From the NCBI GenBank assembly GCA_947459425.1, contig CANHDJ010000006.1:19008-83007 (forward strand): a DNA stretch of 64,000 nt. Direction: 5' to 3'. Shown one piece after another: positions 25,328 to 63,073 of this stretch; position 1 is the first letter of the stretch, and each line of letters begins with the position of its first letter. The notes under the pieces were generated by a model that did not search any database, had not been told where the DNA came from, and saw nothing but the letters and a program-made list of their open reading frames with translations. The stretch is from Ignavibacteria bacterium. GTDB lineage: Bacteria; Bacteroidota; Ignavibacteria; Kapaibacteriales; UBA4661. The position numbers were made by a program, and so were the translations under genes.

Positions 25328-25368
25328 ACTGAACCACTCTTTTTTTGCGGAAATGGGATAGACGGAAG

Positions 25369-29927: not shown

Positions 29928-30049
29928 AATGCAAACCCGGAATACCGGTGATTGATAGAACAAAGTTTTTTCAGTTCATTAGAATTACACAAGCAAAAAC
30001 CGTGCTAGATTTTTTCTTCTGGCATATTTGAAGAAAGTGCTGCAATTTT

Positions 30050-34011: not shown

Positions 34012-34084
34012 ATGATAAACAAAGCGTTGATAGCGTTTTGTGAAGACTACTGGCGCAAAGTTAGCAAAATTTTATTGCCCGCAA

Positions 34085-34127
34085 AGAAAAAAGCCCGAAG
34101 AGCAGGATTTTTTCGCTCTTCGGGGCT
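34085..34127 (-). terminator. Rho-independent terminator of the giant gene
   Basis: On the minus strand: gccccgaagagc ... gctcttcgggc stem followed by TTTTTT. It sits 25 bp after the stop at 34151. Confidence 0.65.
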
Positions 34128-34150
34128 TTGTTGTTGCCGTCATCGTGGCT

Positions 34151-37100
34151 CTACCGCACTATCTGTACTTGCCGCGAATCTGTTTCGCCATTCATCCGAA
34201 TCTGTACCGTATAAGACCCGCTCGGAAGCCTGTCCACGCGGGTTTGAAGCAGATGCTCGCCACCGGACTGGACTTCTTGCTTGAAAATATGCACGGTCTC
34301 GCCTTTAGCATTGACCAACACAATCTCCACAAATCCCGTCTCGCCCAGCGAATAGGCTATTTCCACAGCATTCGTCGCCGGGTTCGGCGCAATAGCGGTA
34401 ATCGCTAATTTTGCCGTTGAAGGCACAATAAGCCGCTTCCCACCTGCTTGCGAGACCTTTACCGTGAACGAACCGTTGATAAGCGAATCCATCGTCACAC
34501 TGCCTTCGCCCCATTCCAAGGACTCCAATACCAGCGCCGTTGTTGCCGTCGTGCCGGCGACCGCCAAACAGCGTATTTGCGCCAACGTCCGCGAACGTCC
34601 CTGCCAGAATGTCGGCGGCAAAACATAGCCTTGCAGACCATCCGCGCTCGGAACGGGAGCATTCAAGCGCCGCAAGCCGAGTTCGTCCGGAGCCAGCACA
34701 AGAACTTGATTATTCATGCGCAATCTGCCGCTAATCCTTGGCTGTGCCGCTTTGAAAATCGCATCCAAAGGCTTATCGGATTGCAGATAGATTTCCAGCC
34801 GCACAGCACTTCCGGGCGCAACATTATCGTCCAAAGCCCGCACACCAACTTGCACAAAGACATCCTCTGGCGTTCTCAATCGTGCGTAGGTCTGCAATTC
34901 AACTTCTGTCGTTTCCAAATCTTCTCGCCGCAACTGATCAAGAGAAACATTGTACGTAATGCAGCGCAGTGTATTGCTTTGAACCGTCCCGACGGTTGTG
35001 GCAAGGCACGTCATTCGGAGAAGTACGGTATCACGAGGCGCAATGGAGACCTCCTGCCCTTGGAAATCCAATCGGTACGGGCTTGCCGCATTCGCAAGCG
35101 CCGCCCGTTGGAGCGTAATAGGGCGGTCTTCGAGATTGATAAGCATTGCCGAAGAAATGCGATTTTTGCCCACAATCACCGTGTCAAACGCTGGTGCCAC
35201 AAGCCGCACCCCGCTTACCCGCGCTTGCAAACGATTCTGCAAGGTACGTTCTTGAACATTTGCGCTCATACCAACACGGAAGCTCACCGTTATTGAGTCG
35301 GACAGCGGACCAACCTTTCGCGCCACAAAACGAATCGGCAACTGAACCTCTGCGCCCGCAGCAACGGTTTGTGGCGGATTTTCTATTGTGAAATCAGGAA
35401 TGCTCGCTTTGATACTCTCAATCGTCAATGCCGCCGAACCAAGATTTTGTAAACGAATCGTTCCGCGAGTCTCATCAAAGCGTGTGAGTTTCCCGAAATT
35501 CCATTCCGACATCGTCAGTTGTGCATTCGGTGGCAATGTCGTGAACGTACCAACCGCCCAAGGACTCTCTCCGGCAACATTTTCCGCCCGAACGCGCCAC
35601 GCAAACTGGCGGTCTGCCGCAAGCGGGAAAGCAGTGCGGAAAAAGGCGGGAAGCGTTTGCTGACTGGCGAGAATCGCCCCGGCAACGGGAAGATCTGCCG
35701 TGTTCGGTATTGTCGCCGATGAAAGCACACTGGCAAACGCTGTATCGGCAGCAATTTCCAAACGATAACGCTCTACGGTCGGAACACTCGTCCAACGGAA
35801 GCGCGGCACCGTGCTGACATCAAGCTCACCTGCCCCCGGCTCCAAAAGCGCAACCGACGGCGGTGCCGTGAGCGGATTACGTCCCAAGACCTGTACTTGC
35901 GCCGTTGCAAGCGTTATTTCGGGCAAACGGTCGTTGGTTATCACGCAATCATACGAACCAGTATCAGCCATCGTAAAGGCAGGAATAATGAGGTCGGCGT
36001 GGCGGCTGGCATCACGTAGAGTTGTCAGTGCAGCACCGTTTTTCCGCCATTGTGTGCGGCTATAGACCTCGGTTTTCGGCACACTGAGTCGCAACGAGTC
36101 TTGCAAGGTGACCGTCACCACCGCCTCCGTCGAGTTCGCACCAGCGCCTACCCGTGCCAAGAGTCGTGGCTGTGCGAACGGTGCTTGCGGCAAATACAGC
36201 AACGTGCGATTACTGCCAACAGTACCAACAAAATATTCCAGCATCGCAACCGAAAAGCGATTATTGCTGACGGCAACCGTATCCAAGCGCGTTGCTCCCG
36301 ACAAATCCACAATGCCCGAAAGCTGATTATTGCGAATATCCAAATGGCGCAAACGCGATAGTGTGCGCAGGCTTGCGGGCAGATCACCCGTAAAGGCATT
36401 GCTGTCAAGCAGCAGAACGCGAAGGAATTGTAGGTTCTTGATTTCATCGGGAATCGGTCCCGTGAGATTGTTGTTGCCCAAATCCAACACATCCAAATCC
36501 GATGCGGCTTGCAGGGCAACAGACTTCGCCTTGCCCACGTTGCGGACTAATCCCATCGGGAAATTACCCGTCAACCGATTCCCACGCATCCTGAGAACTT
36601 GAAGTTGAGTGAGTGCTGCTATTTCATTCGGAATTTCGCCCGTGACGCGATTGCCCGTCATATCCAGCACCGTTAGTGCGGTCATTTGTGGGATAGCATC
36701 GGCAAGTTTTCCACCAAACGAATTGCCACGCAGATTCAGCACCGTGACGTTTGGCAGACCTGAGAGCGAGGACAAACTATCGCGGATTGCATTGCCTGAA
36801 AGGTCAATTTCACGCAATTTCGTCATCGTTTTCATCTCTCTTGGTAATCCTCCCGCAAAACCATTATTGGCAAGTCGCAGCACTTCAAGGTTCTTTGCAT
36901 TGACAAGGCTTGGCGGGATTGCCCCCGAAAGTTTGTTATTGCGCAAATCCAACACCTTCAGAGCATCGAGGCTTTCCAGTACCTCCATCGGGATTGCACC
37001 TTGAATACCGCTATCGGGCAAGCGCAATTCGACCACACGCCCGCTTTGAACCGTTACGCCATACCGCACCCCAATCGGCGCTCCATTCGTCCAATTCGAG

Positions 37101-40100
37101 GTCGTTGTCCACTGCATCCCCCCCGTACTAGCAAAAAGACGATTCAGCGCCAACGAATCTTTGGAGGAAACAGGCTCTGGCGGCGTGACCACAACTGGAA
37201 CCGAAGTGGTATCCAAGGTGAACAGGTTCGAGCCTTCCAACGTCTCGGTTAATGTCTCGACCATGATTTTGCCGCTTCTCACCGAACCAACGGTTACTTG
37301 TATCATCGTTGGCAAAACAACAGCAAATGCACCAACACGTACACCGCCAATGCTCACCGACTTGACCGAACCCCGCACCGATGAGCCGAGTGGAGCAAAA
37401 TGTTGTCCAAAAATCGAAACGACACTTTGCGTAGAGCCAATATTCGGGAACATAATGGAAACCGACGGAATATCCCGCGCATTCACCCGAAGGCGCTGCA
37501 AGATACTTACCCGCACCGTTGGCGTGGTAACGACTAATCGCGCACTTGTCGAAAGCAATAACGACGGTACAATATTGTTCGGCACCTGCACGACGATTGC
37601 GGTCGTGCTGCGCGAAATAATCTCCAACGGCAGCGATTCAATCGAACCCGATGAAAGCGCAACATTCGCATTGGTGCTGATGTTCTCGCCTGTGAGCGTA
37701 ATCGGCGAACCCTCGGTCACCGTCGTTGGCTCAACATCGGTAATCCTCATGGGCGCTGGTGCAACGACCGTTGCACCAGTCATTCCCATTGTGCCTGTCG
37801 TGACAGGTGCTGCAAAAACGATTGAACCAACTTCCACACGCCGAATGCGATGGTTATCGGTATCAAAGACCAACAGCGCACCGTTGTCCCAAAGCAATGA
37901 GTGTGGCGAATTAAACTGCGCAGCTTGCGTTGTGCCGTCAGCAAAGCCCTGTGTGCCACTTCCCGCCACCGTGACAACCTCGCCCGTGATAGTGCTGACA
38001 GCGCGGATGCGGTGATTACCAAGATCGGCAACAAACAGCGTTGTACCGTTCAACGCAAGACCCATCGGGTTGTTAAATTTCGCCGTGCCGCTTGTGCCGT
38101 CGGCAAAGCCCGCCTCGCCTGTTCCGGCAAGAGTTGTGACCGTGCCGTTTTCCATCCAAATTTTCCGAATCGTGTTCCCGCCTCTGTCGGCAACGTAGGC
38201 ATAATTTTGATTGTCCACCACTATCCCGCTTGGACCGTTAAAAAGCGCTTCGGTTTCACTCGCACCATTGGCAGAGCCTGCTTCACCAGGATTTCCAGCG
38301 TAGGTGAATACCGTCGCATTCAGAAAAACCCGAATAGCATGGGCTTCCTGGTCGGTAAGGATAATTGGACCTCTGTTGTCTCGTGCAAGCCCTAGTGGGC
38401 TTATAAACCGTGCATCCGGTAAACTGCCGTCCAAATAGCCTTTCTCTCCTGTTCCAGCGAACAATCGCACTGCTCCACTGGCAATATCAACGATGCGCAT
38501 TCTGGAGCCGATATAATCCGCAACAAGGAGGTGCGTCGAGCCATCACCGCCAAATTCATTGCTGGGAAGCAAGCCAAAGGTATGATTAAACTGTGCTGCC
38601 ACACCAACGCCATCAGCATTTCCGCCATCCAAACTCCCCGCAACGGTCGAAACTTCTCCCGTCTGCACGTTCAATCGGCGAATGGCGTGAACCATAGAAA
38701 AATACACATTATTGCCAATTTTGGCACCAAATCGCGGAAAGTTCAATTCTGCCGCCTGACCCGCAAAATTCGTCAGCCCGCCTGTGCCATTGCCTACAAT
38801 CGTCGAAACTTTTGGCAAGTCCAAGACCGTAAAGCCCGCACGGCTGCCCGTTTCCATGCCCTTGGTGACGCGCACCTCGCCGCTCACCGCACCAAACGGC
38901 ACAACCGTCTGAATTTCCGTTGCCGAGACCACTTTGAACCACGCCTCTTTGTCGCCAAATGCTACCTTCGTTGCGCCCGTAAAGCGTGTTCCCGTGATTG
39001 TGACGGACTGCATCGGTGCAGCCGATTCGGGCGCGAAACTGGTGACAATAGGCACGGTCGTGCTGGGAGGAGTTGGCACACCGCTCGGCGTAGCACCGGG
39101 AGTAAATACGGCAAAGCCACGGCGAGGCTGCCCGCCAACGCTGGTAAATGCTCCGCCGACATATAAGGTTGTACCGCTAGCGGCAAGAGCGCGAACATCG
39201 CCACCAGCCAGATTTGCATTAAATGCCGTGACGGTAGCGTCGGAAGGTGCTTTCGGAAATCCGGCAAGTGCATTGCGCTGGACATTACCATTAACGCTGG
39301 TAAAAGTTCCGCCCGCATAGACATTCGCGCCTATAACCGCTATTGCCCACACGTCATTGTTCATATTCGGATTCCAATCAATGACAGGATTTCCATTTGC
39401 CGATGGAAGAGCGCAGAACTTACTGCGTGGCGTACCACCGACACTCGTAAAATTACCGCCAACGTAGGTTGTACCACCATCCAAAGCGAGCGCAAGCCCT
39501 ACACCGTCTTGAATCTGTGCATCCCAACTTGGAATATCTTGCGCTCCGGGAGTTAAATTCGCCAAGCGGTTTTGACGCACAATACCATTGGTCTGCGCAA
39601 AATGCCCGGCGACTTTAATTGAGCCATTCGCATTGTCCACCACGACTGCCTGCGCGACATTGGCGATATTCGGCACAAAACCTGAAAGTGTTCCATCAAC
39701 AGTATTGAAGCCGCAACCATTGTTCCATCCCGGATTGCCCGCCACACCCGTAAAGCCGCCCACAGCATAAATTACCGTATTGGCAGCATTCAAACTCAGT
39801 CCATTCACAAACTGATTGAGCGGGTGTTGCGTTTGCCAAGAATCAAGAACGCCTGTGCTTGCATTGAATCGGCATAAGTGATTGCGCACCGTTCCGCCGT
39901 TCACCGTCGTAAATTCACCACCGACATACACCGTATTATTCCCATTATCAACAGCAATAGCACGAACATTGACACCGCCAATCGAAGGAATTGCTGTCGT
40001 GATAAGTGCGCCCGTGTTCGCGTCAATCGCCGCCAGGCGGCTTCGCATGAGCGTATTTCCGCCATTGGTAAGTGAATTTGTTGTTTCGGTGAAATCACCG

Positions 40101-43100
40101 CCAACATACACGATCGTTCCAGCGCCATTGACCGCAATAGCAAACACAGAGCCATTAAACGTCGGAAACTTACTGAGCGCCGCATTCGGATCCACCACCG
40201 GAGGAATCAGCACAAATCCCTGACGCGATGCCGTGCCGGAGGCATTAACAACCGAAATACTGCCGCTTGAAGCATTGAGGGGAACAGTTGCCCGAATTTG
40301 CGTCGGCGACACAACCGTAAACTGCGCCGCTGTCGCCCCACCAAAGCTGACGTGCCGCGGTGCCGTGAAATTCTCACCCGTTATCGTGACCTCATCGCCC
40401 GAACGAGCCATGGTCGGCGCAAAGCTACTGATAATCGGTGTCGGAACAATAACCGTAAAGCCTGTGAACGTCCCCGTTCCGGCAGCACCGACAACACTGA
40501 TGGTGTTCGTCGTCACGCCCGCCGGAACGCGCACACGGATTTGCGTTGGCGAAAGAACCGTGTATTGCGTTGGCGCGACATTGATGCCGCCAAAACGCAC
40601 CGCCGTCACGCCCGTAAAGCGCGTTCCCGTGATAATAATCTCCTGCCCTATGAGCTGACTTTGCGGTTGCGTCCGCGTTATGGTCAAGGGCTGGAAAGTA
40701 ATCGTTGTTGTCGTTGAACCGCCGATGCTTGTAATAAGCATCGGACCGCCTGTCGTGGCGGGGGGCATCGTAAAGGTCAACCGATTATCGTTCTGCCGTT
40801 GCACGGTTTGAATGAGAATGCCATTGACACGCACGGTTAAAAGATTGGCAATAAAGTTTGCCCCCGTTACCGTCACCAACTCGCCCGGCAATGGGCTTTC
40901 GGGCGCAAAACTCGTAATCGTCGGCGGCGGTATGACCTGCATTGGCGTTGCCGCAGTGACCGTTCCCCCACTGGCTATCACCGTCAAATTCCCTACCGTT
41001 GCTTGGGTGAAGGTTGCCCGCATTTCCGTCAAACTCGTCCATTCCAGCGTTGCTGCGGTGAGCGTTCCGATGCGCACAATCGGCAATGGATGAAACTCTG
41101 TTCCCAAAATCGTCAAGGTCTGCCCAAAGGCAAGGAACGTTCCGGGCTGCGCCGATGAAATCGTTGGTGGACGAACCATGGTAAACGTGCCAAGCGAATC
41201 CGTTCCCACTCCCGGAGTTTGCGCACGAATGAGTCCCGTCGAAGCATCATTCGGAACGGTAATGCGAATCTGACCGTTTGTAACGGGCGTAAATGCTTGT
41301 GTGTAGGCGCTAGTACCAAAATTCACGCCGGAGACACGCGGGAAATTCCCACCGAAAATGTTCACCGTATCGCCCGCTCTTGCCCATTTGGGGAAGAAAT
41401 TGACAATCGAAGGAGTTTGCACAAAGTCAAAACTGCCCGGAGAAGCGGCAATGCCCGTTGGCGTTTGAACAGTCACCGGACCGGAATTGCCCAAATTTAC
41501 CCGTGCTGTAATCGCATTAGCACCGCCACTGACAAAACTCAGCGCATTCAGACCACCAAAGCTCACGTTTATCGGATTGGAAAGGCGATTGCCTTGTATT
41601 TGCACGGTGCTTCCTGTCGTTCCGTAGCTAGGCGAAAACGACGTTATTTCCGGTGCATTATTGAACGTAATCATCTGCGTAGAATTTGCCGCACCAGCCG
41701 GAGAAATAAGCGTCACAAGACCGCTCCCGCCTGCACCAACAACAGCCTTAATAAGCGTCGGGGACACAATCTGAAAACTTGTCGCCGCAAATCCACCGAT
41801 TCCCACTTGCGTTACACCACCCAACGCCGTTCCCGTAATCGAAATCGTATCGCCCGGAAACACCGTGAGCGGCGTAAAACTTGATACCGTTGGCTGGATG
41901 GAGCCGATAGCAAAGAAATGATTCACCCCAGGCGGCACGGCTCCTGCATTGGAGGTTATCGTCGTCATGGTGATACCATTGCCGCCGAACCCCGTATATT
42001 GACCTGCCTGCACTGCCGAGCGCCCAACGATGTATGCCAAGGACAAGCCCGATTCCGTCAGCGTCAGCGCCGTGCCGTTGAAGACACCCGACATCGTTTG
42101 CAAACGCCAGTTGCGCTGCGAAAGGAAGGACGACATTGTGGCATCAAACGTTACAGCGCCCGCATCGGCGACTTCTGCTTCAATCACCGGAGATGCGCCC
42201 GTGAGCGTGTTCACCAGCGTTGCCGGACGGAAGCCTGCCGCCGCGCCGATAGGAAACGCATAATTTGTTCCCGGCGCGACGATACCGCCCGTCAAACGCC
42301 GTTGGAGTTTGCCGCGTACAAAACTGCCCGCCGTGCCGTTCAGAATCGTTCCCGCTGCCGTTCCCGACGGGTCGCCGGAGAAAATGCGGGTTGTCGGCTC
42401 CAAAATGCCATTCGTGAAATCCAGCGTTCCGCGCACGTTCAAATCGCCCGTGATGGTGTGATTTCCGGCGCGGTTCACCGTCAAATTATTCAGCGTGTTG
42501 TCTGTTGGGTCTAAGCGCAGCGCCAGTGCGCCTGTGCCGCCGAGCGAGATAGATCCGGCATTTGCGCCGTTGACGCTGGCAATGTTCGCGCCGCCGTTTT
42601 GATTGAGTGTACCGTTTAATGACAGCGTATAGTTGCCCACATTGCTGAGAACAAGTTTTGATGCGGCATTGATGCTCAAACTATTGACAACAAGAGCATT
42701 TGCGCCAAGTGTAACGGGCATGGTATTGGTAATCAGCACGTTTTGTGCGCCTGCTGCGCCAATTTCCCGTGCGGTCGTGGTTTTAACGGCAGTTCCCGAA
42801 TATTCCAGCGTAGCCCCCACAGCGTAGTTCACATCAGAGCTTCCCGTTACAGAGCCGGAGTTTTGTATTTCCAGGATTCCCATATTCTGCACGGTAAAAC
42901 TCGTACCGGAAGCGTTGTTATTCACCACACCACCACCAGTTTGTAGGCGCAAACGCCCGCTTCCAGCAATGGTGAGCGTTGCCGACGCACCTTGCGTAAG
43001 CGTAAACGCGCCCGTTTGGAATGCTCCTGCGCCACTTGTATTGATATTAGTAGCGGTATTGACCGTTGCATTTGCATCCAGTGTAATGTCGTTTGTCCCT

Positions 43101-46100
43101 ATCGCCGTCAATGTTCCTATCGGATTGGCAGTAACGGCGGGCTTCCCTCCGACTGCGGCAAATCGCGTGTTGATTGCGTTTACGCTTGAGTTGAAGGAAT
43201 AGCTTGCCCCGGCGGTGTAGGTAATTGGTCCCGTAAACTGCACCGCGCCTTGCGCTAATGCGTTACCGTTGATACCGTCGGCACGAGATGTAACAAGCGT
43301 TCCCGAAGCAGCAAGCGTGAAATTTCCTGCGCCATTGACGTAACTCGTGCCTGTGTTGAGCGTGCCACCGACGAGCATGGTCGCGCCTACTGCTGCTTGA
43401 GTTAGAACCATGTTATTGCCGAGAGTGAGAGAATTTCCGCTAGGAATTGAAATACCGCCAGTTCCTACCGCGAGTGTTTGTGCGGCTCCGGGAGAAAGCG
43501 TAACATCCCCGCCAATAATCAGTTGTTGTATGTTTTGGGACGGAATATTCGTTGGAGCAAATGTTCCCGCATTGAAGCGCAATCTGTCCGTCGCGGCAGG
43601 TGTGCCGCGATTCACCATGTTTACTGCATCATACCAACTTCCTGCAGCTTGCCAATCGCCCAACATACCACCTACCCAATCGTAAAGATTTGGACCTATC
43701 CCCACAAGGAAATATCCTGCACCCACAACCCCCCCGTTGGTCGTTATGTTGCCCGCCGCCCAAGCAGAATTATTGTTGTTATACGTGCCATTAGCAGTGG
43801 CAGGATTACCGCCAATACTGTTGATAACAGTGTATGGCATAGGAACGGTGCGTTCCACAGAAATCCGACCACTCGTGTAGTTACCGCTTATTTGCTGGAG
43901 TTGCCAGTATTCTGTTGTGGAAAGAGACGAAATATCCGTTCCTACCATACCCATTGCATTTCCGACAAAGGCTTGTACTTGCACACGAGGTCCCGTAGCA
44001 CCTGTGAATGGGTCGAGTACCTTAAAGGGATATTTGTCCGCACCAACACCAACCGGAAATAAATACGTTCCCGCCGTTCCCGTAAGATTCGCCGCCATAT
44101 CACGCTGCAATGGTCCATCCACATACCCCGTTGTTACGGCAATAGCTGTGGGAGCAGTGTTGGAGACCGTGAGCATATTTACGCCCGTTGTCAGAAGTCG
44201 CCCGCCGTTCAGCGTCAGCGTTGCCGACGCGCCGAGTGTTTTTGCGGCATTCAGCGTCAGAATGTTGGTATTGGTCACAAGAAGATTTCCACCCATTGCA
44301 GCAGGAAACTCCTGCGTCGTGGTTGTTTTCGCCGCCGTGCCGGAATACTGAAGCGTCGAACCCGCCACGTAGTTCAGCGTGGATGAGGCTGAGGAGATGA
44401 CACCCGCGTCTTGGATTTCCACAAAGCCGCCGCTATTGACCGTAAACGACAGCGCCGTCGCGTTGTTATGCTGAAGGTTGCCGCCGTTCGGAATAATCAA
44501 GCGTCCGCCGGAGTTTACCGTTACCGTTCCCGTTGCACCGATGACGGGCGCGGCAGGAATAGTCGCGCCGACGGTGTTGGAAACAACGAGCCGTGCCAGC
44601 ATGGGCGAAGGAAGTTCAACGGCTGTGAGTGTTTTTGCCGCCGCGCCGCCGGATTCCAGCGTGGCATTATTGGGAAGAACAGCATCGCCATAGACTGGTG
44701 AAGTCCCCGCAAGTGCGCCTGTTCCCATGAGAAGGAGTCTGCCGCCTGTCGCGCCGTTGTTGATATTGAGATGCCCGCTATTGGTCATTGTTACGCCATT
44801 GGACACTTCGAGCGTTGCACCATTTTCAACAGCCATTATCCCATTGTTTGTTAATGCATTGTTCAATCTCAGCGTCGCACCGTTTTTGACGAGCATTTCT
44901 ACACTTGCGCCAAGCGTAAAACCTGTTGTAGCAGCGGCAGTGCCGGAAGCAACTGTAAAACTTGAGGCGGTATTGTTAAAATCGAGTGCGTTCACCGGAC
45001 CCGTACGTTGCCATGACGCAGGCAAACCCGCATCGCCACTTGCGTAGGTATATCGGTAAAAATCAATTTTGCGCACCGCATTGGCGGATGAAATTTCTCC
45101 CAAATAGATTTGGTCGGAAGCATTATCGTACCAGATGCCGTGCGGTCGCGCAATTTGAGCGACAGATGGTATTCCATCAAGTGTTACAAGTGTGCCGTTG
45201 CCTGTAACGGTCGTAACCATGCCCGTTGCTTTGGAAATACGCCGCACTCTTCCATTGTCGGTATCGGCAACATAAAGGTTCCCCGCAGCATCCATCACAA
45301 GACCACCCGGAGCATTGAATTGAGCCGATAACCCCGCTCCATCGGCAGACCCCAATGTTGATCCCGCAATGGTCGTTACCTCACCTGTCCCAATAACTAT
45401 TTTGCGAATGCGATGAGAGCCTTGCTCTGAAACAAACAAATTTGTACCATCAGAACAAATACCGCCCGGCAAATTGAATGTTGCTCCTGCTCCGGTACCG
45501 TCTAAAGCTCCGGGAGTACCATTGCCTGCAAGCGTCGTAACCACGCCGCCGAGCGTTATTCTGCGAATACGATGATTCGCTCTATCTGACAAATAGAGAC
45601 TGGATGTGCCTGCGTCATAACAAATTTGTGAAGGAGTATCGAACTGTGCGCCTGCTCCCGTCCCATCGGCAAAGCCATTTCCATTTCCGGCAATCGTCGT
45701 AACAACGCCTGTTGCGATAACAATTCTCCGAATACGCGAACTTCCTCCCTGCTCCGAAACATAGAGATGAGTTCCGTCCGAACAAATTCCCACAGGTTGA
45801 GCAAATCGGGCGGACGTTCCTGTGCCGTCAAGTGAAGCATTCGTGCCATCTCCGGCAAAGGTTGTTACCAGCCCCGTCGTGAGGTTAATGCGGCGAATAC
45901 GATTATTAACCCATTCGGTTAGAAATAAATCATTGCCGACCCGCACCATGCCTAAGATGTAATTGAATTGCGCCAAAGCACCCGCTCCATCAGCATATCC
46001 CGCTGCACCAAAGCCCGCTATCGTGGTAACTTGGGGAATAGGATTGACCGTAAAGCCGGGCTGATTAAGAGGCGAGTTGGGAGAACCAATCAGTGTAACA

Positions 46101-47389
46101 TTTCCATTCACAGCACCATACGGCACGGCGGCTTCGATGGTTGTAGCATTAACAAATCTCATGCTACCGGGCGACGTAATCCCGCCAAACTGCGCCTGTA
46201 AAAACGATGGCGTATATGCTGAAAAATTCGTCCCTGTGATAGTAACTTTCTGCATCGGGTAGGCACTCATCGGGGTAAAACTTGTAAAGGTAGGAGGGTC
46301 AATTTTACGGATACGCTCGTTTCCTCTATCAACAACATAGAGACTTCCATTGAGGAGGGAAACACCGTGCGGAAAACTAAACTGAGCAGATGCGGCATCA
46401 CCATTGGTGGTACCTGGTGTTCCTAAGCCAGCATACGTTGTTACGTTACTGCTGGGATCTATTCTACGGATGCGATTGTTATTGAAGTCGGATACATACA
46501 CATTCCCTACAGCATCAACGCAAACACTTATAGGAAAATCAAAACTCGCTGAAGTCCCAGGACCATCAACATGAGCGGCAACACCATTTCCGGCAAGGCT
46601 TGATACTGTCGTACCAGCCGCATTTATTTTGCGGACGAGGTGATTCGATCTGTCTGCAATATAGATATTTCCTGCACCATCTATACAAAGATGATGGGGA
46701 AAATGAAACCCCGACGAGAGAGCAGCACCGTTAGCGGCACCTGTAACTGTCGGTGTTCCTGCATAGGTGGTTACGTTTCCCCCTAAATCTATTTTACGGA
46801 TGCAGTGATTGGAGAAGTCAGCGACATAGATATTTCCCGCAGCATCAGCGCACACCCCTGTAGGCTGATTAAATTGCGCAACACCAGAGGTACCGTTATT
46901 GAAGCCGACTACCCCTGTTCCTGCGTGGGTGGTTACGTTTCCCCCTAAATCTATCTTACGAATGCGATGCCCTCCGTATTCAGCTACATAGATATTCCCC
47001 GAGGCATCTGAACACACTCCGGCAGGCTGATTAAACTGTGCAGAGGCTGCCAAACCATTTGCAAAACCAGCTACCCCTGTTCCTGCGAAGAGGGTTACAT
47101 TTCCAACAGCATCTATTTTGCGGATGCGGTGATTCATTAAATCCGCAACATAAATATTCCCTGACGGGTCTGTACAGATACCATTAGGCTGATTAAACTG
47201 AGCAGCACCACCAATGCCGTTTATGTAGCCTAATGTTGAACCTGCGAAGAGGCTAACAGATTGCGCATAAACCGCGGGCACAAACGTACACAGCAAAAGC
47301 ATAAAAGAAGTCAACGACACCAAAGCAGCACGACGGCACACTCTTCGGGCAAGACGAAGGGTTGAAGAAAGGAGCATAATGGTCTCCAA
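34151..47389 (-). CDS. Giant T9SS-secreted surface protein (4,412 aa). Domain order: signal peptide, NHL block 1, IPT/TIG, NHL block 2, beta-helix-like repeat arrays, ~9 IPT/TIG, 'YVGGxFTxVxG' propeller-like repeats, NHL block 3, IPT/TIG, plant-type LRR with N-cap, Ig I-set-like, FN3-like, ASH-like domain, T9SS C-terminal domain.
   Basis: One uninterrupted ORF. NHL repeats such as 'GSTLGYINGIGGAAQFNQPNGICTDPSGNIYVADLMNHRIRKID' recur in three blocks. TIG units look like 'PTITSFAPESPLPGELVTVTGANF'. 'LQYSGTAAKTTTTQEF' beta-helix repeats are present. LRRs 'LDLRNNKLSGAIPPSLVNAKNLEVLRLANNGFAGGLP' run at 24-aa periodicity. The C-terminus '...LPSGSYTVQIRMNGETDSRQVQIVR' is a Por_Secre_tail-like domain. 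Confidence 0.9.
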   Translation of the reverse strand: METIMLLSSTLRLARRVCRRAALVSLTSFMLLLCTFVPAVYAQSVSLFAGSTLGYINGIGGAAQFNQPNGICTDPSGNIYVADLMNHRIRKIDAVGNVTLFAGTGVAGFANGLAASAQFNQPAGVCSDASGNIYVAEYGGHRIRKIDLGGNVTTHAGTGVVGFNNGTSGVAQFNQPTGVCADAAGNIYVADFSNHCIRKIDLGGNVTTYAGTPTVTGAANGAALSSGFHFPHHLCIDGAGNIYIADRSNHLVRKINAAGTTVSSLAGNGVAAHVDGPGTSASFDFPISVCVDAVGNVYVSDFNNNRIRRIDPSSNVTTYAGLGTPGTTNGDAASAQFSFPHGVSLLNGSLYVVDRGNERIRKIDPPTFTSFTPMSAYPMQKVTITGTNFSAYTPSFLQAQFGGITSPGSMRFVNATTIEAAVPYGAVNGNVTLIGSPNSPLNQPGFTVNPIPQVTTIAGFGAAGYADGAGALAQFNYILGMVRVGNDLFLTEWVNNRIRRINLTTGLVTTFAGDGTNASLDGTGTSARFAQPVGICSDGTHLYVSEQGGSSRIRRIVIATGVVTTIAGNGNGFADGTGAGAQFDTPSQICYDAGTSSLYLSDRANHRIRRITLGGVVTTLAGNGTPGALDGTGAGATFNLPGGICSDGTNLFVSEQGSHRIRKIVIGTGEVTTIAGSTLGSADGAGLSAQFNAPGGLVMDAAGNLYVADTDNGRVRRISKATGMVTTVTGNGTLVTLDGIPSVAQIARPHGIWYDNASDQIYLGEISSANAVRKIDFYRYTYASGDAGLPASWQRTGPVNALDFNNTASSFTVASGTAAATTGFTLGASVEMLVKNGATLRLNNALTNNGIMAVENGATLEVSNGVTMTNSGHLNINNGATGGRLLLMGTGALAGTSPVYGDAVLPNNATLESGGAAAKTLTAVELPSPMLARLVVSNTVGATIPAAPVIGATGTVTVNSGGRLIIPNGGNLQHNNATALSFTVNSGGFVEIQDAGVISSASSTLNYVAGSTLQYSGTAAKTTTTQEFPAAMGGNLLVTNTNILTLNAAKTLGASATLTLNGGRLLTTGVNMLTVSNTAPTAIAVTTGYVDGPLQRDMAANLTGTAGTYLFPVGVGADKYPFKVLDPFTGATGPRVQVQAFVGNAMGMVGTDISSLSTTEYWQLQQISGNYTSGRISVERTVPMPYTVINSIGGNPATANGTYNNNNSAWAAGNITTNGGVVGAGYFLVGIGPNLYDWVGGMLGDWQAAGSWYDAVNMVNRGTPAATDRLRFNAGTFAPTNIPSQNIQQLIIGGDVTLSPGAAQTLAVGTGGISIPSGNSLTLGNNMVLTQAAVGATMLVGGTLNTGTSYVNGAGNFTLAASGTLVTSRADGINGNALAQGAVQFTGPITYTAGASYSFNSSVNAINTRFAAVGGKPAVTANPIGTLTAIGTNDITLDANATVNTATNINTSGAGAFQTGAFTLTQGASATLTIAGSGRLRLQTGGGVVNNNASGTSFTVQNMGILEIQNSGSVTGSSDVNYAVGATLEYSGTAVKTTTAREIGAAGAQNVLITNTMPVTLGANALVVNSLSINAASKLVLSNVGNYTLSLNGTLNQNGGANIASVNGANAGSISLGGTGALALRLDPTDNTLNNLTVNRAGNHTITGDLNVRGTLDFTNGILEPTTRIFSGDPSGTAAGTILNGTAGSFVRGKLQRRLTGGIVAPGTNYAFPIGAAAGFRPATLVNTLTGASPVIEAEVADAGAVTFDATMSSFLSQRNWRLQTMSGVFNGTALTLTESGLSLAYIVGRSAVQAGQYTGFGGNGITMTTITSNAGAVPPGVNHFFAIGSIQPTVSSFTPLTVFPGDTISITGTALGGVTQVGIGGFAATSFQIVSPTLIKAVVGAGGSGLVTLISPAGAANSTQMITFNNAPEITSFSPSYGTTGSTVQIQGNRLSNPINVSFGGLNALSFVSGGANAITARVNLGNSGPVTVQTPTGIAASPGSFDFVQTPSIVNFFPKWARAGDTVNIFGGNFPRVSGVNFGTSAYTQAFTPVTNGQIRITVPNDASTGLIRAQTPGVGTDSLGTFTMVRPPTISSAQPGTFLAFGQTLTILGTEFHPLPIVRIGTLTAATLEWTSLTEMRATFTQATVGNLTVIASGGTVTAATPMQVIPPPTITSFAPESPLPGELVTVTGANFIANLLTVRVNGILIQTVQRQNDNRLTFTMPPATTGGPMLITSIGGSTTTTITFQPLTITRTQPQSQLIGQEIIITGTRFTGVTAVRFGGINVAPTQYTVLSPTQIRVRVPAGVTTNTISVVGAAGTGTFTGFTVIVPTPIISSFAPTMARSGDEVTITGENFTAPRHVSFGGATAAQFTVVSPTQIRATVPLNASSGSISVVNASGTASRQGFVLIPPVVDPNAALSKFPTFNGSVFAIAVNGAGTIVYVGGDFTETTNSLTNGGNTLMRSRLAAIDANTGALITTAIPSIGGVNVRAIAVDNGNNTVYVGGEFTTVNGGTVRNHLCRFNASTGVLDSWQTQHPLNQFVNGLSLNAANTVIYAVGGFTGVAGNPGWNNGCGFNTVDGTLSGFVPNIANVAQAVVVDNANGSIKVAGHFAQTNGIVRQNRLANLTPGAQDIPSWDAQIQDGVGLALALDGGTTYVGGNFTSVGGTPRSKFCALPSANGNPVIDWNPNMNNDVWAIAVIGANVYAGGTFTSVNGNVQRNALAGFPKAPSDATVTAFNANLAGGDVRALAASGTTLYVGGAFTSVGGQPRRGFAVFTPGATPSGVPTPPSTTVPIVTSFAPESAAPMQSVTITGTRFTGATKVAFGDKEAWFKVVSATEIQTVVPFGAVSGEVRVTKGMETGSRAGFTVLDLPKVSTIVGNGTGGLTNFAGQAAELNFPRFGAKIGNNVYFSMVHAIRRLNVQTGEVSTVAGSLDGGNADGVGVAAQFNHTFGLLPSNEFGGDGSTHLLVADYIGSRMRIVDIASGAVRLFAGTGEKGYLDGSLPDARFISPLGLARDNRGPIILTDQEAHAIRVFLNATVFTYAGNPGEAGSANGASETEALFNGPSGIVVDNQNYAYVADRGGNTIRKIWMENGTVTTLAGTGEAGFADGTSGTAKFNNPMGLALNGTTLFVADLGNHRIRAVSTITGEVVTVAGSGTQGFADGTTQAAQFNSPHSLLWDNGALLVFDTDNHRIRRVEVGSIVFAAPVTTGTMGMTGATVVAPAPMRITDVEPTTVTEGSPITLTGENISTNANVALSSGSIESLPLEIISRSTTAIVVQVPNNIVPSLLLSTSARLVVTTPTVRVSILQRLRVNARDIPSVSIMFPNIGSTQSVVSIFGQHFAPLGSSVRGSVKSVSIGGVRVGAFAVVLPTMIQVTVGSVRSGKIMVETLTETLEGSNLFTLDTTSVPVVVTPPEPVSSKDSLALNRLFASTGGMQWTTTSNWTNGAPIGVRYGVTVQSGRVVELRLPDSGIQGAIPMEVLESLDALKVLDLRNNKLSGAIPPSLVNAKNLEVLRLANNGFAGGLPREMKTMTKLREIDLSGNAIRDSLSSLSGLPNVTVLNLRGNSFGGKLADAIPQMTALTVLDMTGNRVTGEIPNEIAALTQLQVLRMRGNRLTGNFPMGLVRNVGKAKSVALQAASDLDVLDLGNNNLTGPIPDEIKNLQFLRVLLLDSNAFTGDLPASLRTLSRLRHLDIRNNQLSGIVDLSGATRLDTVAVSNNRFSVAMLEYFVGTVGSNRTLLYLPQAPFAQPRLLARVGAGANSTEAVVTVTLQDSLRLSVPKTEVYSRTQWRKNGAALTTLRDASRHADLIIPAFTMADTGSYDCVITNDRLPEITLATAQVQVLGRNPLTAPPSVALLEPGAGELDVSTVPRFRWTSVPTVERYRLEIAADTAFASVLSSATIPNTADLPVAGAILASQQTLPAFFRTAFPLAADRQFAWRVRAENVAGESPWAVGTFTTLPPNAQLTMSEWNFGKLTRFDETRGTIRLQNLGSAALTIESIKASIPDFTIENPPQTVAAGAEVQLPIRFVARKVGPLSDSITVSFRVGMSANVQERTLQNRLQARVSGVRLVAPAFDTVIVGKNRISSAMLINLEDRPITLQRAALANAASPYRLDFQGQEVSIAPRDTVLLRMTCLATTVGTVQSNTLRCITYNVSLDQLRREDLETTEVELQTYARLRTPEDVFVQVGVRALDDNVAPGSAVRLEIYLQSDKPLDAIFKAAQPRISGRLRMNNQVLVLAPDELGLRRLNAPVPSADGLQGYVLPPTFWQGRSRTLAQIRCLAVAGTTATTALVLESLEWGEGSVTMDSLINGSFTVKVSQAGGKRLIVPSTAKLAITAIAPNPATNAVEIAYSLGETGFVEIVLVNAKGETVHIFKQEVQSGGEHLLQTRVDRLPSGSYTVQIRMNGETDSRQVQIVR

Positions 47390-47706
47390 AGGACTAAAGA
47401 GATGGAGGAAACTGTTTCATTACGAACAATTTACGAACAAAACAACTACGGAGGGGTCACCGATTTTTGGAGGGGGGGTGCTGGAATTTTGAGGGTTTTG
47501 TCATATTTTCATTTCACAAAATGAAAAGCGTAAATACATCTTTCAGGCAATGGCGTTTTTTAACAGAAAACGGCATTTTTCGCAGAGCCAGTACACTTTT
47601 TGTGAATAGCACGCCAAAGAGGAAAACGAGTGAGCGGCAAAAAAGTTGCTATTTTTTTGAAAAAATGTGGAATTCGCGTGCGAAACCCGCCGGACGCTCT
47701 AGGAAG

Positions 47707-47925
47707 CCGCCCGACGGGGAGACCGCTCCTTATACAGCGTTTGTAGGGAACGAAACCCCGAGCCGCGGCAAAGAAATCCGACCGACGGGGAGACCGCTCC
47801 TTATACAGCGTTTGTAGGGAACGAACCCCGAGCCGCGACAAAGAAATCCGACCGACGGGGAGACCGCTCCTCGTCTAGCGTTTGTAGGCAACGAATCTCG
47901 CCATCCGGCGGCTTCTTAGCCCGTC
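47707..47925. repeat. Tandem array of three ~70 bp near-identical units; the third is degenerate. It lies between the giant gene start and the phosphatase gene stop and is related to the other intergenic repeats.
   Basis: Units start 'ccgacggggagaccgctcc' at about 47711, 47782 and 47852. Copies 1 and 2 differ at only 2 to 3 positions. The flank 47680..47706 'cccgccggacgctctaggaagccgcc' shares the 'gtccggcgg' and 'ccgtcgggcgg' motifs (in reverse orientation) with 25390..25430. Confidence 0.75.
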
Positions 47926-47991
47926 GGGTGGCTGCCCGCCTGACGAGCGGAAAACCTCTTTTGAGTGCGAAGAAGCGCCCCCGCACCACAA

Positions 47992-63054: not shown

Positions 63055-63073
63055 TGGTTTGGATGTTTGGCAA

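What the first reader, a model, noticed from the sequence alone, without database searches (positions are those of the whole stretch)
34151..47389. Mosaic architecture of the 4,412-aa T9SS cargo protein
One ORF strings together three separate NHL beta-propeller blocks, more than 10 IPT/TIG domains, long beta-helix-like repeat arrays, a 'YVGGxFTxVxG' propeller-like block, a plant-receptor-style LRR with an N-terminal cap motif, an I-set-like Ig domain, an ASH/MSP-like domain and a Por_Secre_tail. This combination of eukaryote-like recognition modules on one T9SS substrate is unusual and is duplicated in the window. Both giant genes sit next to intergenic repeat elements. The architecture suggests a surface adhesin or recognition molecule for cell-cell or particle binding.
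Basis: partly seen in the sequence, partly recalled or inferred. Interest (0 to 1): 0.65.

Follow-up and report, generated by a model that had tools for sequence, protein, structure and literature searches.

The report
Giant modular T9SS surface protein, Kapabacteria

Summary
The ORF is real. It runs 34151-47389 on the minus strand, and the likely start is the ATG at 47377, giving 4,408 aa. Most of the listed modules are confirmed: three six-bladed NHL propellers, 11 TIG-like domains (8 by Pfam), a DUF5122 "YVGGxFT" propeller, a plant-class 24-residue LRR, an ASH/VesB-like Ig domain and a type-A T9SS C-terminal domain. Two modules are not confirmed: the I-set Ig domain is below threshold, and Pfam LRRNT_2 is not detected. 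About 1,140 aa with no Pfam match fold confidently as two [beta-solenoid + beta-sandwich] modules with no significant PDB match.

"Duplicated" is only partly right. The second giant ORF (2-12439, truncated by the window edge) is a 25%-identical paralogue. It shares only the TIG-LRR-Ig-FN3-ASH part and the solenoid modules. Only gene A has a neighbouring tandem repeat.

Collinear orthologues (57-65% identity over 3,500-4,200 aligned columns, one in conserved synteny) argue strongly against misassembly. The full C-terminal cassette was found only in Kapaibacterium-type MAGs, with 2-3 copies in most of them. The propellers are exchanged as cassettes between orthologues.

Best reading: a T9SS-exported surface adhesin or recognition fibre, probably anchored by its C-terminus, with variable distal heads. 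It is a new variant of a known kind, of moderate interest.

The parts
34151..47377 (-). Gene A: giant T9SS cargo gene, 4,408 aa from ATG 47377 (4,412 codons from the upstream TTG at 47389), including the stop codon
   Evidence: ORF list and translation. The called product of 4,408 aa is found with identical sequence on 4 contigs. GGAG lies 8 nt before the ATG.
47261..47377 (-). Signal peptide (aa 5-43; Arg-rich n-region, hydrophobic core, ..VYA|QS)
   Evidence: Sequence and hydropathy. It is 69% identical to the signal peptide of orthologue P0154.
46298..47254 (-). NHL propeller 1 (aa 46-364, six blades): the variable distal head. Orthologues P0154, P0004 and P0006 carry a DUF5122 propeller in this position
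   Evidence: Pfam NHL/TEN_NHL/SGL; blade motif every ~54 aa; cassette replacement.
46040..46297 (-). IPT/TIG domain (aa 365-450)
   Evidence: PF01833, 33.3 bits; own HMM.
45065..46027 (-). NHL propeller 2 (aa 455-775): fast-evolving, only 36-47% identical to the best-matching propeller in each orthologue (for P0154 that is its NHL3-position propeller)
   Evidence: Pfam NHL; blade motifs; per-domain identities.
43640..45022 (-). Dark module 1: beta-solenoid (aa 790-1095) plus beta-sandwich with YVDGPLxR...YxFPVG...EYW motifs (aa 1096-1250)
   Evidence: No Pfam or NCBIfam hit. AF2 pLDDT 88.9, pTM 0.82. No significant PDB or BFVD match; the weak hits are beta-helix proteins. The module recurs in many giant proteins.
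41897..43402 (-). Dark module 2: second beta-solenoid (aa 1330-1694) plus sandwich (aa 1695-1831)
   Evidence: Internal similarity and motif NYAFPIG.
40202..41896 (-). Array of seven IPT/TIG domains (aa 1832-2396)
   Evidence: PF01833, 118.5 bits, 6 stretches; 7 by own HMM.
39056..40177 (-). DUF5122/Rax2-type 'YVGGxFT' beta-propeller (aa 2405-2778). Its identity pattern is discordant with its flanks (80% to P0004, but 45% and 42% to P0154 and P0006)
   Evidence: PF17164, 43.8 bits; PF12768, 33.7 bits; per-domain identities.
38819..39055 (-). IPT/TIG domain (aa 2779-2857)
37775..38812 (-). NHL propeller 3 (aa 2860-3205), conserved among orthologues (66-74%)
   Evidence: Pfam NHL, 59.2 bits.
37211..37753 (-). 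Two divergent TIG-like domains (aa 3213-3393)
   Evidence: Own TIG HMM, iE 1e-5 and 1e-7. Pfam TIG scores only 15.3 bits for the first, which is sub-threshold.
36170..37177 (-). Plant-class LRR domain with N-terminal cap-like segment (aa 3405-3740): 10 regular 24-residue repeats plus an irregular first one, and a 12-residue island after repeat 6
   Evidence: LRR_1/LRR_8/LRR_4; repeat register; best PDB matches FLS2, GSO1, MIK2, PEPR1; LRRNT_2 not detected.
35885..36169 (-). Ig-superfamily-like domain (aa 3741-3835; W..NG ... DTGSYDC motif)
   Evidence: Ig_3 24.8 and I-set 22.4 bits, both below cut-off. The equivalent domain in B reaches Ig_3 29.9.
34463..35860 (-). Four beta-sandwich domains: FN3-like with WRVRAEN motif (aa 3844-3951), ASH/VesB-like Ig (3958-4064), a second Ig-like domain (4070-4170), and a larger sandwich (4177-4309)
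   Evidence: AF2 pLDDT 85.9. Foldseek top hits are ciliary ASH-domain proteins, E 1e-17 to 1e-12. PF22544 39.1 bits, DUF1573 27.6 bits.
34412..34450 (-). Flexible linker with the family-invariant motif SQAGGKRLI (aa 4314-4326), a candidate CTD-processing region
   Evidence: It is the only internal low-pLDDT segment. Residues are invariant in alignments A2 and A3. A similar motif precedes the CTD of the unrelated 1,351-aa cargo. The proposed role is inference.
34154..34405 (-). Type-A T9SS C-terminal sorting domain (aa 4329-4412)
   Evidence: PF18962 28.7/32.1 bits against 27; TIGR04183 22.0 against 23. Seven predicted strands. PNP and PSGxY are conserved, and every complete family CTD ends in V/I-V/Y-R.
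34076..34142 (-). Terminator-like G+C-rich hairpin followed by a T-run, directly after the stop codon
   Evidence: Inverted repeat 34076-34103 / 34115-34142.
2..12439 (-). Gene B: paralogous giant gene (at least 4,146 aa, 3' end outside the window). Order: signal peptide, solenoid/sandwich modules and other dark repeats, 5 TIG, LRR, Ig, FN3-like, ASH-like

Best explanation
Gene A is a genuine single gene of an uncultured Kapaibacterium-like bacterium (Bacteroidota). It encodes a Sec- and T9SS-exported giant modular surface protein.

Proposed mechanism.
1. The N-terminal signal peptide takes the protein to the periplasm.
2. The C-terminal type-A CTD targets it through the T9SS translocon.
3. 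The CTD is then probably removed at or near the conserved flexible AGGKRLI linker.
4. The new C-terminus is probably attached to the cell surface.

This would leave the conserved LRR-Ig-FN3-ASH-Ig-sandwich 'chassis' next to the outer membrane. The TIG arrays and the two beta-solenoid/sandwich modules would act as a long spacer. The beta-propellers, above all the N-terminal NHL head, would be the distal ligand-binding tips.

The protein belongs to a lineage-specific multigene family, with 2-3 copies in most of the MAGs found and two in this window. The chassis is conserved across the family. The N-terminal parts differ, and the propellers are exchanged as whole cassettes.

Shown: the architecture, the predicted folds, the family distribution, synteny and cassette exchange.
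Inferred: export, anchoring, orientation and the adhesive or recognition role.
For: - Intact 13.2-kb ORF with SD-ATG, signal peptide and terminator hairpin.
- Type-A CTD above the Pfam cut-off, with a seven-strand model and conserved PNP and PSGxY motifs; every complete family CTD ends in V/I-V/Y-R.
- Two further ORFs in the window carry Por_Secre_tail, one of them below the cut-off.
- According to the review PMC10202324, proteins with T9SS CTDs track the presence of T9SS core genes. The same review states that type-A cargo are cleaved by PorU and either attached to A-LPS or released.
- No significant Pfam or NCBIfam match to any enzyme family was found. The one enzyme-family hit, PF08450 SGL, overlaps the NHL propeller; every other module is a binding or spacer type.
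- The C-terminal 583 aa model as five beta-sandwiches resembling strings of ASH/Ig domains.
- Collinear orthologues: P0004 57% over 4,113 aligned columns, P0154 64% over 4,205, P0006 65% over 3,500.
- Positional orthology with P0006: giant gene-tadA-rsmI-tmk-spoU-mqn-1,351-aa cargo.
- Chassis TIGn-LRR-Ig-FN3-ASH-X1-X2-CTD is present, complete or nearly complete, in 11 clusters in addition to A and B (some lack a detectable ASH, FN3 or LRR hit), with different N-terminal parts.
- The full cassette occurs only in Kapaibacterium-type MAGs, 2-3 loci in most of them.
- Head exchange: the signal peptide is 69% identical to P0154, then NHL against DUF5122, then similarity resumes at the first TIG.
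- The internal DUF5122 propeller is 80% identical to P0004 but 45% and 42% to P0154 and P0006, whereas its flanks show the opposite ranking.
Against: - No T9SS machinery gene lies in the 64-kb window, and the rest of the genome could not be examined.
- TIGR04183 is 1 bit below its cut-off.
- Type-A cargo can also be released rather than anchored (PMC10202324).
- No ligand, expression or localisation data exist.
- Weak fold resemblance of the solenoid to polysaccharide lyases (E>=0.018) leaves an enzymatic role open.
- The four contigs carrying the identical product may derive from the same reads, so they are not fully independent.
Confidence: 0.6

Rival explanations
1. Released extracellular protein. 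The CTD is cleaved and the protein is shed, acting as a biofilm or mat matrix scaffold or a soluble lectin-like binder rather than a cell-anchored fibre.
For: A subset of type-A CTD cargo is released into the medium (PMC10202324). The architecture of repeated binding modules would also suit a matrix cross-linker.
Against: The strongly conserved cell-proximal cassette and the invariant linker motif in the family suggest a specific interaction at the cell end. Nothing tested distinguishes the two fates.
Confidence: 0.15
2. Gliding-motility adhesin analogous to SprB or RemA. The fibre is loaded on a moving surface track and propels the cell over substrata.
For: It is a giant repetitive T9SS cargo of a Bacteroidota lineage. 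RemA is a type-A CTD adhesin (PMC10202324).
Against: There is no sequence relationship to SprB or RemA families in Pfam or NCBIfam. The CTD is type A, not the type B of SprB, and no PorP/SprF-like gene is adjacent. No gld gene is in the window. Motility of these bacteria is unknown.
Confidence: 0.1
3. Surface-tethered multi-enzyme. The beta-solenoid modules act as polysaccharide lyases or hydrolases, or the NHL/SGL propellers act as lactonase-like enzymes, and together they process extracellular polymers.
For: The weak Foldseek hits of the solenoid are all pectate-lyase-like beta-helices and tailspikes. The first propeller also matches SGL/gluconolactonase (63.9 bits). One source annotates the orthologue P0006 and the related protein P0154 as 'sugar lactone lactonase YvrE'.
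Against: None of the fold matches is significant (best E 0.018 against PDB and 0.0025 against BFVD, TM<=0.2). No CAZy-type or lyase Pfam family is hit. The invariant residues of the module (G, P, P, W) are structural rather than acid/base types.
Confidence: 0.08
4. Assembly artefact. The ORF is a chimera of several repeat-rich genes joined by the assembler.
For: The sequence comes from a metagenome. The gene is internally repetitive. Its first propeller has no counterpart at that position in the orthologues.
Against: The order of all modules from aa 366 to the end is reproduced in orthologues from other assemblies, one in conserved synteny. The signal peptide upstream of the unique head is itself orthologous to that of P0154. 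Internal DNA repeats are only 61-77% identical, too low to mislead an assembler. The identical product occurs on 4 contigs.
Confidence: 0.03

Closest known systems
Type-A CTD cargo of the type IX secretion system (e.g. P. gingivalis RgpB, Hbp35; F. johnsoniae RemA)
   Same: N-terminal signal peptide plus a C-terminal ~80-aa Ig-like sorting domain matching PF18962. The expected route is Sec, then T9SS, then PorV/PorU processing, then attachment or release (PMC10202324).
   Different: It is far larger, with a domain set not described for characterised cargo. It has a family-specific invariant AGGKRLI linker before the CTD. The host is an uncultured Kapaibacterium-type lineage in which secretion has not been studied.
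SprB, the giant gliding adhesin of Flavobacterium johnsoniae
   Same: A multi-thousand-residue repetitive T9SS-exported surface filament of Bacteroidota.
   Different: SprB has a type-B CTD and needs the adjacent sprF (PMC10202324). Here the CTD is type A and no PorP/SprF-like neighbour exists. No SprB-repeat family is hit.
GhpA grappling-hook protein of Aureispira (PDB 9flw)
   Same: A giant Bacteroidota surface fibre built largely of Ig-like beta-sandwich domains. Fragment 6 is a Foldseek hit of the C-terminal model (E 6.6e-11).
   Different: The match is generic Ig-chain similarity (TM 0.12). There is no evidence here for hook-forming oligomers or predation. That GhpA depends on the T9SS is from my own knowledge and was not tested.
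Plant LRR receptor-kinase ectodomains (FLS2, GSO1, MIK2, PEPR1)
   Same: 24-residue LxxLxLxxNxLxGxIP repeats, an island insertion, and best PDB sequence matches. Alignments to SRF6, HPCA1, PEPR1, TMK1 and PRK3/6 begin in their N-terminal caps.
   Different: Only ~11 repeats. The cap lacks the plant Cys pair and is not recognised by Pfam LRRNT_2. There is no transmembrane or kinase part. It is embedded in a secreted bacterial protein.
ASH/MSP (PapD-like) Ig domains of ciliary central-apparatus proteins (HYDIN, CFAP65) and bacterial VesB-like/DUF1573 domains
   Same: PF22544 and DUF1573 are above cut-off. The top Foldseek hits of the C-terminal model are chains of these domains.
   Different: Here they are extracellular spacers next to a T9SS CTD. 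Pfam ASH proper is below cut-off in A (16.8 against 27) though above it in B (35.4).
Right-handed beta-helix adhesins and enzymes (Antigen 43, pertactin, tapirin, pectate lyases, phage tailspikes)
   Same: The dark modules are predicted as all-beta solenoids of short strands, and these are the only (weak) fold neighbours.
   Different: No match is significant (E>=0.018 in PDB, TM<=0.2) and no sequence family is hit. Each solenoid is coupled to a conserved beta-sandwich (YxFPxG...EYW) to form a ~450-560-aa repeat unit.

Membership tests
T9SS type-A CTD cargo (PF18962 / TIGR04183) | C-terminal ~80-aa domain scoring above the curated cut-off | tested here: met
   PF18962 scores 28.7 bits (whole protein) and 32.1 bits (segment) against 27. 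TIGR04183 scores 22.0 against 23, just below.
T9SS type-A CTD cargo (PF18962 / TIGR04183) | Ig-like seven-strand beta-sandwich fold of the CTD | tested here: met
   The AF2 model has seven strands at model residues 500-581, with block pLDDT 80-89 over most of that stretch. The fold description is from PMC10202324.
T9SS type-A CTD cargo (PF18962 / TIGR04183) | Conserved surface motifs (B, D, E) including basic C-terminal residues | tested here: inconclusive
   APNPA, LPSGSYTVQI and terminal QVQIVR are conserved across the family. Mapping them to motifs B, D and E is from my own knowledge. The family ends in Arg, not the Lys stressed for P. gingivalis.
T9SS type-A CTD cargo (PF18962 / TIGR04183) | N-terminal Sec signal peptide | tested here: met
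   Arg-rich n-region, hydrophobic core (mean Kyte-Doolittle >2) and VYA|QS site, by inspection. No dedicated predictor was available.
T9SS type-A CTD cargo (PF18962 / TIGR04183) | T9SS core genes (gldKLMN/porKLMN, sprA/sov, porV, porU) in the same genome | not testable with these tools
Two other ORFs in the window carry Por_Secre_tail.
T9SS type-A CTD cargo (PF18962 / TIGR04183) | T9SS-dependent export and CTD cleavage | not testable with these tools
   This requires experiment.
NHL-repeat beta-propeller (PF01436) | Tandem NHL repeats above cut-off, forming six-bladed units | tested here: met
   202 bits against 20, 7 stretches. Six blade motifs ~54 aa apart were matched by regex in block 1 and four in block 2; the remaining two blades of block 2 are read by eye from the translation. 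Block 3 scores 59 bits.
IPT/TIG (PF01833) | Domain hits above cut-off | tested here: met
   8 domains by Pfam (33.3, 118.5 over 6 stretches, 24.3 bits). 3 further ones appear only with an in-house HMM, or at 15.3 bits.
Plant-specific-class LRR with LRRNT_2 cap | 24-residue LxxLxLxxNxLxGxIP repeats | tested here: met
   10 regular repeats spaced 22-24 residues apart, apart from one 36-residue island. LRR_8 scores 101 bits and LRR_1 107 bits. The top PDB matches are plant LRR-RKs.
Plant-specific-class LRR with LRRNT_2 cap | N-terminal cap matching PF08263 (LRRNT_2) | tested here: not met
   There is no LRRNT_2 hit at E<=1 for aa 3395-3480. phmmer alignments to SRF6, HPCA1, PEPR1, TMK1 and PRK3/6 do start in their caps, so a cap-like segment exists but is not a recognised member.
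Immunoglobulin I-set (PF07679) | Score above the gathering threshold | tested here: not met
   22.4 against 23.7; Ig_3 24.8 against 30. The W...DxGxYxC motif is present, but the B-strand Cys is absent.
ASH / HYDIN-VesB-like Ig (PF22544, PF15780) | Domain hit above cut-off and PapD-like fold | tested here: met
   PF22544 39.1 against 25.5 and DUF1573 27.6 against 26.1. PF15780 scores only 16.8 in A but 35.4 in B. Foldseek top hits are ciliary ASH-domain chains.
DUF5122 / Rax2 beta-propeller | Repeat hit above cut-off | tested here: met
   PF17164 43.8 against 27; PF12768 33.7 against 28.8.
SprB-type gliding adhesin | Type-B CTD (PF13585) and an adjacent PorP/SprF gene | tested here: not met
   The CTD is type A. 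No PF13585 hit and no PorP/SprF-like neighbour were found.
Pectate-lyase-like right-handed beta-helix | Significant fold or sequence match to a beta-helix family | tested here: inconclusive

The most novel reading that the evidence does not exclude
The Kapaibacterium-type lineage may maintain a repertoire of giant surface 'receptors'. These would share a conserved membrane-proximal chassis (TIG array, plant-class LRR, Ig, FN3, ASH, sandwich, AGGKRLI linker, CTD). Their distal beta-propeller heads would be reshuffled as whole cassettes between paralogues and strains. That would make it a recombination-driven system for varying what the cell binds (partners, prey, phototroph filaments or particles in mats). 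A previously unclassified ~500-aa beta-solenoid/sandwich repeat would serve as the extensible shaft.
Probability: 0.25. Interest if true: 0.6.

Novelty: new variant of a known kind. Interest (0 to 1): 0.36.

Why it matters
Giant T9SS cargo proteins are the main way Bacteroidota touch their surroundings, yet outside a few model species almost none is characterised.

This locus defines a lineage-specific family with a clear division of labour between a conserved cell-proximal cassette and exchangeable propeller heads. Such families are a natural handle for asking what uncultured mat and biofilm bacteria attach to. The heads can be expressed alone and screened for ligands.

It also exposes a ~500-aa beta-solenoid/sandwich repeat that is abundant in giant proteins (up to about 9 copies in a 6,038-aa protein) but absent from Pfam and NCBIfam and without a solved relative, so it deserves a family definition.

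The plant-class LRR in a conserved position is a useful case for the old question of how this LRR class is shared between plants and bacteria.

None of this overturns current understanding. It extends it.

Tried and rejected
SEARCHES THAT FAILED OR WERE WEAK
- The search for homologous proteins with the whole protein timed out.
- The three counted searches (module 1, the C-terminal 673 aa, alignment A1) returned only 2-4 proteins. The word index appeared to saturate on this low-complexity sequence. The exhaustive HMMER search was what found the orthologues.
- Alignment A2 was too diverse for the search for related loci. A narrower alignment, A3, worked.
- Foldseek against PDB and BFVD gave no significant match for the dark module.
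- A profile search of the dark module against PDB sequences gave only marginal hits to phage/T6SS spike beta-helices (E 3e-4 to 1e-2).
- Rfam found nothing in the window.
- A literature search for Kapabacteria together with T9SS found nothing specific.

IDEAS CONSIDERED AND REJECTED
- Recent tandem duplication of A and B: they are 25% identical over the shared part only.
- Misassembly: the orthologues are collinear, synteny is conserved and the signal peptide is conserved.
- A shared repeat element next to both giant genes: the 70-nt repeat is unique to the region upstream of A.
- Foreign origin from composition: the higher G+C of A and B (0.53-0.54 against 0.47-0.51) fits their Gly/Ala/Thr-rich composition, not necessarily transfer.

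NOT PURSUED
- Whether the LRR was acquired from plants or the reverse.


Full report
**1. What is in the sequence**

The window holds a stop-free frame at 34154-47416 on the minus strand. The listed ORF is 34151-47389, 4,412 codons from a TTG. The fifth codon is an ATG at 47377, preceded by GGAG at a proper distance. The public gene call for this contig gives a 4,408-aa product starting there.

The contig is a metagenomic scaffold (ENA ERZ28613002, MEHR18-2_SAMN08331108 scaffold_456, 89 kb). The identical 4,408-aa product is on record from four contigs.

Residues 5-43 look like a signal peptide, with four Arg, a hydrophobic core and VYA|QS. A G+C-rich hairpin with a T-run follows the stop codon (34076-34142).

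An open frame of 4,421 codons cannot arise by chance in DNA of 53% G+C.

**2. Domain map**

Pfam and NCBIfam scans of the whole protein and of segments were combined with a TIG HMM built from the Pfam-supported copies and simple repeat parsing. They give this order:

| Residues | Module |
|---|---|
| 5-43 | signal peptide |
| 46-364 | NHL propeller 1, six blades |
| 365-450 | TIG |
| 455-775 | NHL propeller 2 |
| 790-1250 | dark module 1 |
| 1330-1831 | dark module 2 |
| 1832-2396 | seven TIG |
| 2405-2778 | DUF5122/Rax2 'YVGGxFT' propeller |
| 2779-2857 | TIG |
| 2860-3205 | NHL propeller 3 |
| 3213-3393 | two divergent TIG-like domains |
| 3405-3740 | cap-like segment plus LRR |
| 3741-3835 | Ig-like domain |
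| 3844-3951 | FN3-like domain |
| 3958-4064 | ASH/VesB-like Ig |
| 4070-4309 | two further beta-sandwiches |
| 4314-4326 | short linker |
| 4329-4412 | type-A T9SS CTD |

The exceptions:
- I-set and Ig_3 are below cut-off (22.4 against 23.7; 24.8 against 30).
- Pfam ASH proper is below cut-off in A, while PF22544 and DUF1573 pass.
- LRRNT_2 is not detected at all.
- TIGR04183 is one bit short, whereas PF18962 passes (28.7 and 32.1 against 27).

**3. The LRR**

The LRR has 10 regular repeats plus an irregular first one. Nearly all are exactly 24 residues with LxxLxLxxNxLxGxIP, and a 12-residue island follows repeat 6.

Its best sequence matches among solved structures are plant LRR receptor kinases (FLS2, GSO1, MIK2, PEPR1). 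Alignments to several plant receptors begin inside their N-terminal caps. 'Plant-receptor-style LRR' is therefore a fair description. Membership of the LRRNT_2 cap family is not supported.

**4. The dark 1,140 residues**

No Pfam or NCBIfam model hits aa 770-1910. An exhaustive HMMER search of 1.84 billion representatives showed two things:
- There are full-length orthologues.
- The ~450-560-aa unit recurs many times in other giant proteins. For example, about 9 sandwich domains were detected in the 6,038-aa P0010, with several more in P0011, P0033 and P0039.

An alignment of 17 copies (A1) has invariant G, P, P and W within the motifs YVDGPLxR, YxFPVG and EYW.

AlphaFold2 on this alignment gave pLDDT 88.9 and pTM 0.82:
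- Residues ~40-335 are short strands of 3-5 residues at regular intervals, which I read as a solenoid. The coordinates were not inspected.
- Residues ~339-470 have longer strands, which I read as a sandwich.
- The next solenoid then begins.

Foldseek found no significant relative in the PDB (best E 0.018, TM<=0.19) or in BFVD (best E 0.0025). The weak hits were all beta-helix proteins: capsule and pectate lyases, Antigen 43, pertactin, tapirin and tailspikes.

The module is not a member of any described family.

**5. The C-terminal cassette**

AlphaFold2 on aa 3830-4412 with 15 homologues (A2) gave pLDDT 85.9. The model has five beta-sandwich domains. A single disordered linker (SQAGGKRLIVPSTAK) precedes a seven-strand CTD.

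Foldseek's best PDB hits are chains of ASH domains in ciliary central-apparatus proteins (E 1e-17 to 1e-12). After these come generic multi-Ig proteins, including a fragment of the Aureispira grappling-hook protein.

The AGGKR residues are invariant among close members and nearly so across the family. A similar AGGxRLI precedes the CTD of the otherwise unrelated 1,351-aa cargo in the window.

**6. Is it duplicated?**

A second giant frame occupies 2-12502 (-). Its start is the ATG at 12439, it has at least 4,146 aa, and its 3' end lies beyond the window.

It aligns with A in only three stretches:
- the C-terminal ~770 residues, at 25% identity;
- the TIG block, at 27%;
- one solenoid piece, at 28%.

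Its first ~2,800 aa have no Pfam hit, and it has no NHL or DUF5122 propeller. It is a distant paralogue, not a copy.

The 70-nt x2.7 tandem repeat (47683-47895) is unique to the region upstream of A. Nothing comparable lies upstream of B.

**7. Relatives and module order**

Orthologues of 3,887-4,532 aa exist:
- P0006 is NCBI MCU0424161.1, 'IPT/TIG domain-containing protein [Candidatus Kapabacteria bacterium]'.
- P0154 belongs to a cluster whose named members are annotated as Candidatus Kapaibacteriota.

From the first TIG to the C-terminus, A is collinear with three of them:

| Orthologue | Identity | Aligned columns |
|---|---|---|
| P0004 | 57% | 4,113 |
| P0154 | 64% | 4,205 |
| P0006 | 65% | 3,500 |

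P0005 lacks the internal DUF5122-TIG-NHL3 block and carries about 730 N-terminal residues that I read, from the sequence itself, as SBBP-type repeats.

The P0006 locus has the same downstream genes as the window (tadA, rsmI, tmk, SpoU methylase, a menaquinone-like gene, the 1,351-aa cargo), so it is a positional orthologue.

These facts, plus internal DNA repeats of only 61-77% identity, make a chimeric assembly very unlikely.

**8. A family with a conserved chassis and exchangeable heads**

Mapping A's modules onto 17 related giant proteins shows the order TIG array-LRR-Ig-FN3-ASH-X1-X2-CTD. This order is present, complete or nearly complete, in 11 clusters in addition to A and B, spanning 2,445-5,273 aa. 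A few of them lack a detectable ASH, FN3 or LRR hit. It is preceded by quite different N-terminal parts: NHL propellers, DUF5122 propellers or solenoid/sandwich modules.

A scan of 185,579 species genomes found the full cassette only in Kapaibacterium-type or 'Ignavibacteria bacterium' MAGs, with two or three loci in most of them. The FN3-like WRVRAEN domain alone is widespread. The nearest representative genome, JAAFHM01, is ~83-85% identical in DNA.

Three observations point to cassette exchange:
- The signal peptide of A is 69% identical to that of P0154. The next 320-370 residues are unrelated propellers (NHL in A, DUF5122 in P0154, P0004 and P0006). Similarity resumes exactly at the first TIG.
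- The internal DUF5122 propeller of A is 80% identical to P0004 but 45% and 42% to P0154 and P0006. Its flanking TIGs show the reverse ranking: 81, 74 and 62% on one side, and 78, 73 and 58% on the other.
- NHL2 is only 36-47% identical to its best match in each orthologue, while NHL3 is 66-74%.

Propellers are therefore replaced or recombined as cassettes on a conserved scaffold.

**9. How it most likely works**

Established knowledge of type-A CTD cargo (review PMC10202324) is as follows:
- Cargo undergo Sec export, then recognition of the CTD, then passage through the SprA/Sov translocon.
- PorV shuttles them to PorU, which cleaves the CTD.
- PorU then either attaches the new C-terminus to anionic LPS or releases the protein.
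- CTD-bearing proteins track the presence of T9SS core genes.

Applied here (inference), the conserved LRR-Ig-FN3-ASH cassette would sit next to the outer membrane. The TIG arrays and solenoids would form the shaft. The N-terminal propellers would form the distal, variable binding tip.

The absence of a significant match to any enzyme family (apart from the SGL hit overlapping the NHL propeller), the conservation pattern and the head exchange all fit an adhesin or recognition fibre. Neither the ligand nor the anchoring is shown.

No T9SS machinery gene lies in the window. The neighbours are housekeeping and signalling genes, two OmpA-family proteins and two further Por_Secre_tail proteins.

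**10. Rivals**

- Release as a matrix protein cannot be separated from anchoring with these data.
- A SprB-like gliding role is disfavoured by the type-A CTD and the lack of a PorP/SprF neighbour.
- An enzymatic role for the solenoids or propellers rests only on non-significant fold hits and a generic SGL match.
- Misassembly is essentially excluded.

**11. Novelty and verdict**

The kind of thing, a giant modular T9SS cargo, is known. Orthologues are already in public databases under generic names. The following have not, as far as the searches show, been described:
- this architecture;
- its restriction to one lineage;
- the conserved chassis with a plant-class LRR;
- the cassette-wise exchange of propellers;
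- the unclassified solenoid/sandwich repeat.

I rate it a new variant of a known kind, of moderate interest.

Noticed in passing
window 47683-47895: A 70-nt unit is repeated 2.7 times between the 3' end of the SpoIIE-phosphatase gene and the start of gene A. It is bracketed by 36-nt inverted arms (47687-47722 / 47896-47931). It occurs nowhere else in the window and has no Rfam match.
   Followed up: partly
window 25359-25556: A 98-100-nt unit is repeated twice (83-85% identity) just downstream of the 1,351-aa T9SS cargo gene. Each copy contains short hairpins (CTCTTC...GAAGAG, CTGCC..GGCAG). It lies inside the 5' end of ORF 23081-25687, whose real start is probably further downstream.
   Followed up: no
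window 34412-34450 (A aa 4314-4326) and window ~26200-26230 (1,351-aa protein): The motif [SC]xAGGxRL[IV] lies 12-15 residues before the PNP motif of the CTD. It is present in A, in most family members (degenerate in a few) and in the unrelated 1,351-aa cargo. It falls in the only disordered linker of the model. It may be a lineage-specific CTD processing or recognition site.
   Followed up: partly
window 25908-29963 (-), 23081-25687 (-), 20996-23053 (-): A third T9SS cargo (1,351 aa; Ig_7/CHU_C-associated and Por_Secre_tail) is followed by two large OmpA-family outer-membrane beta-barrel genes. The cargo gene is conserved in synteny in Kapaibacterium Prado071.
   Followed up: partly
window ~6860-9020 (B aa ~1140-1860): Two ~470-aa repeats in gene B (motif IALYDGA...) have no Pfam match. 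They are another unclassified module of these giant proteins.
   Followed up: no
window 35537-35860 (A aa 3844-3951); loci L016-L080: The FN3-like domain with the [YF]xWRVRAEN motif is widespread (Balneolales, Ignavibacteria, Saprospiraceae, Chloroflexota, even Theionarchaea MAGs). Yet it scores only 16.9 bits to its nearest Pfam model (Ig_Rha78A_N).
   Followed up: partly
window 61483-63991 (-): A DUF1800/DUF1501 gene pair. The DUF1501 protein ends in a sub-threshold Por_Secre_tail (25.8 against 27), suggesting T9SS export of this normally periplasmic-type protein.
   Followed up: no
L004 11750-14160 (Kapaibacterium Prado071): About 2.4 kb lies between the orthologous giant gene and tadA. This stretch has no counterpart in the window, where the gap is ~140 nt. 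It may be an insertion and was not examined.
   Followed up: no
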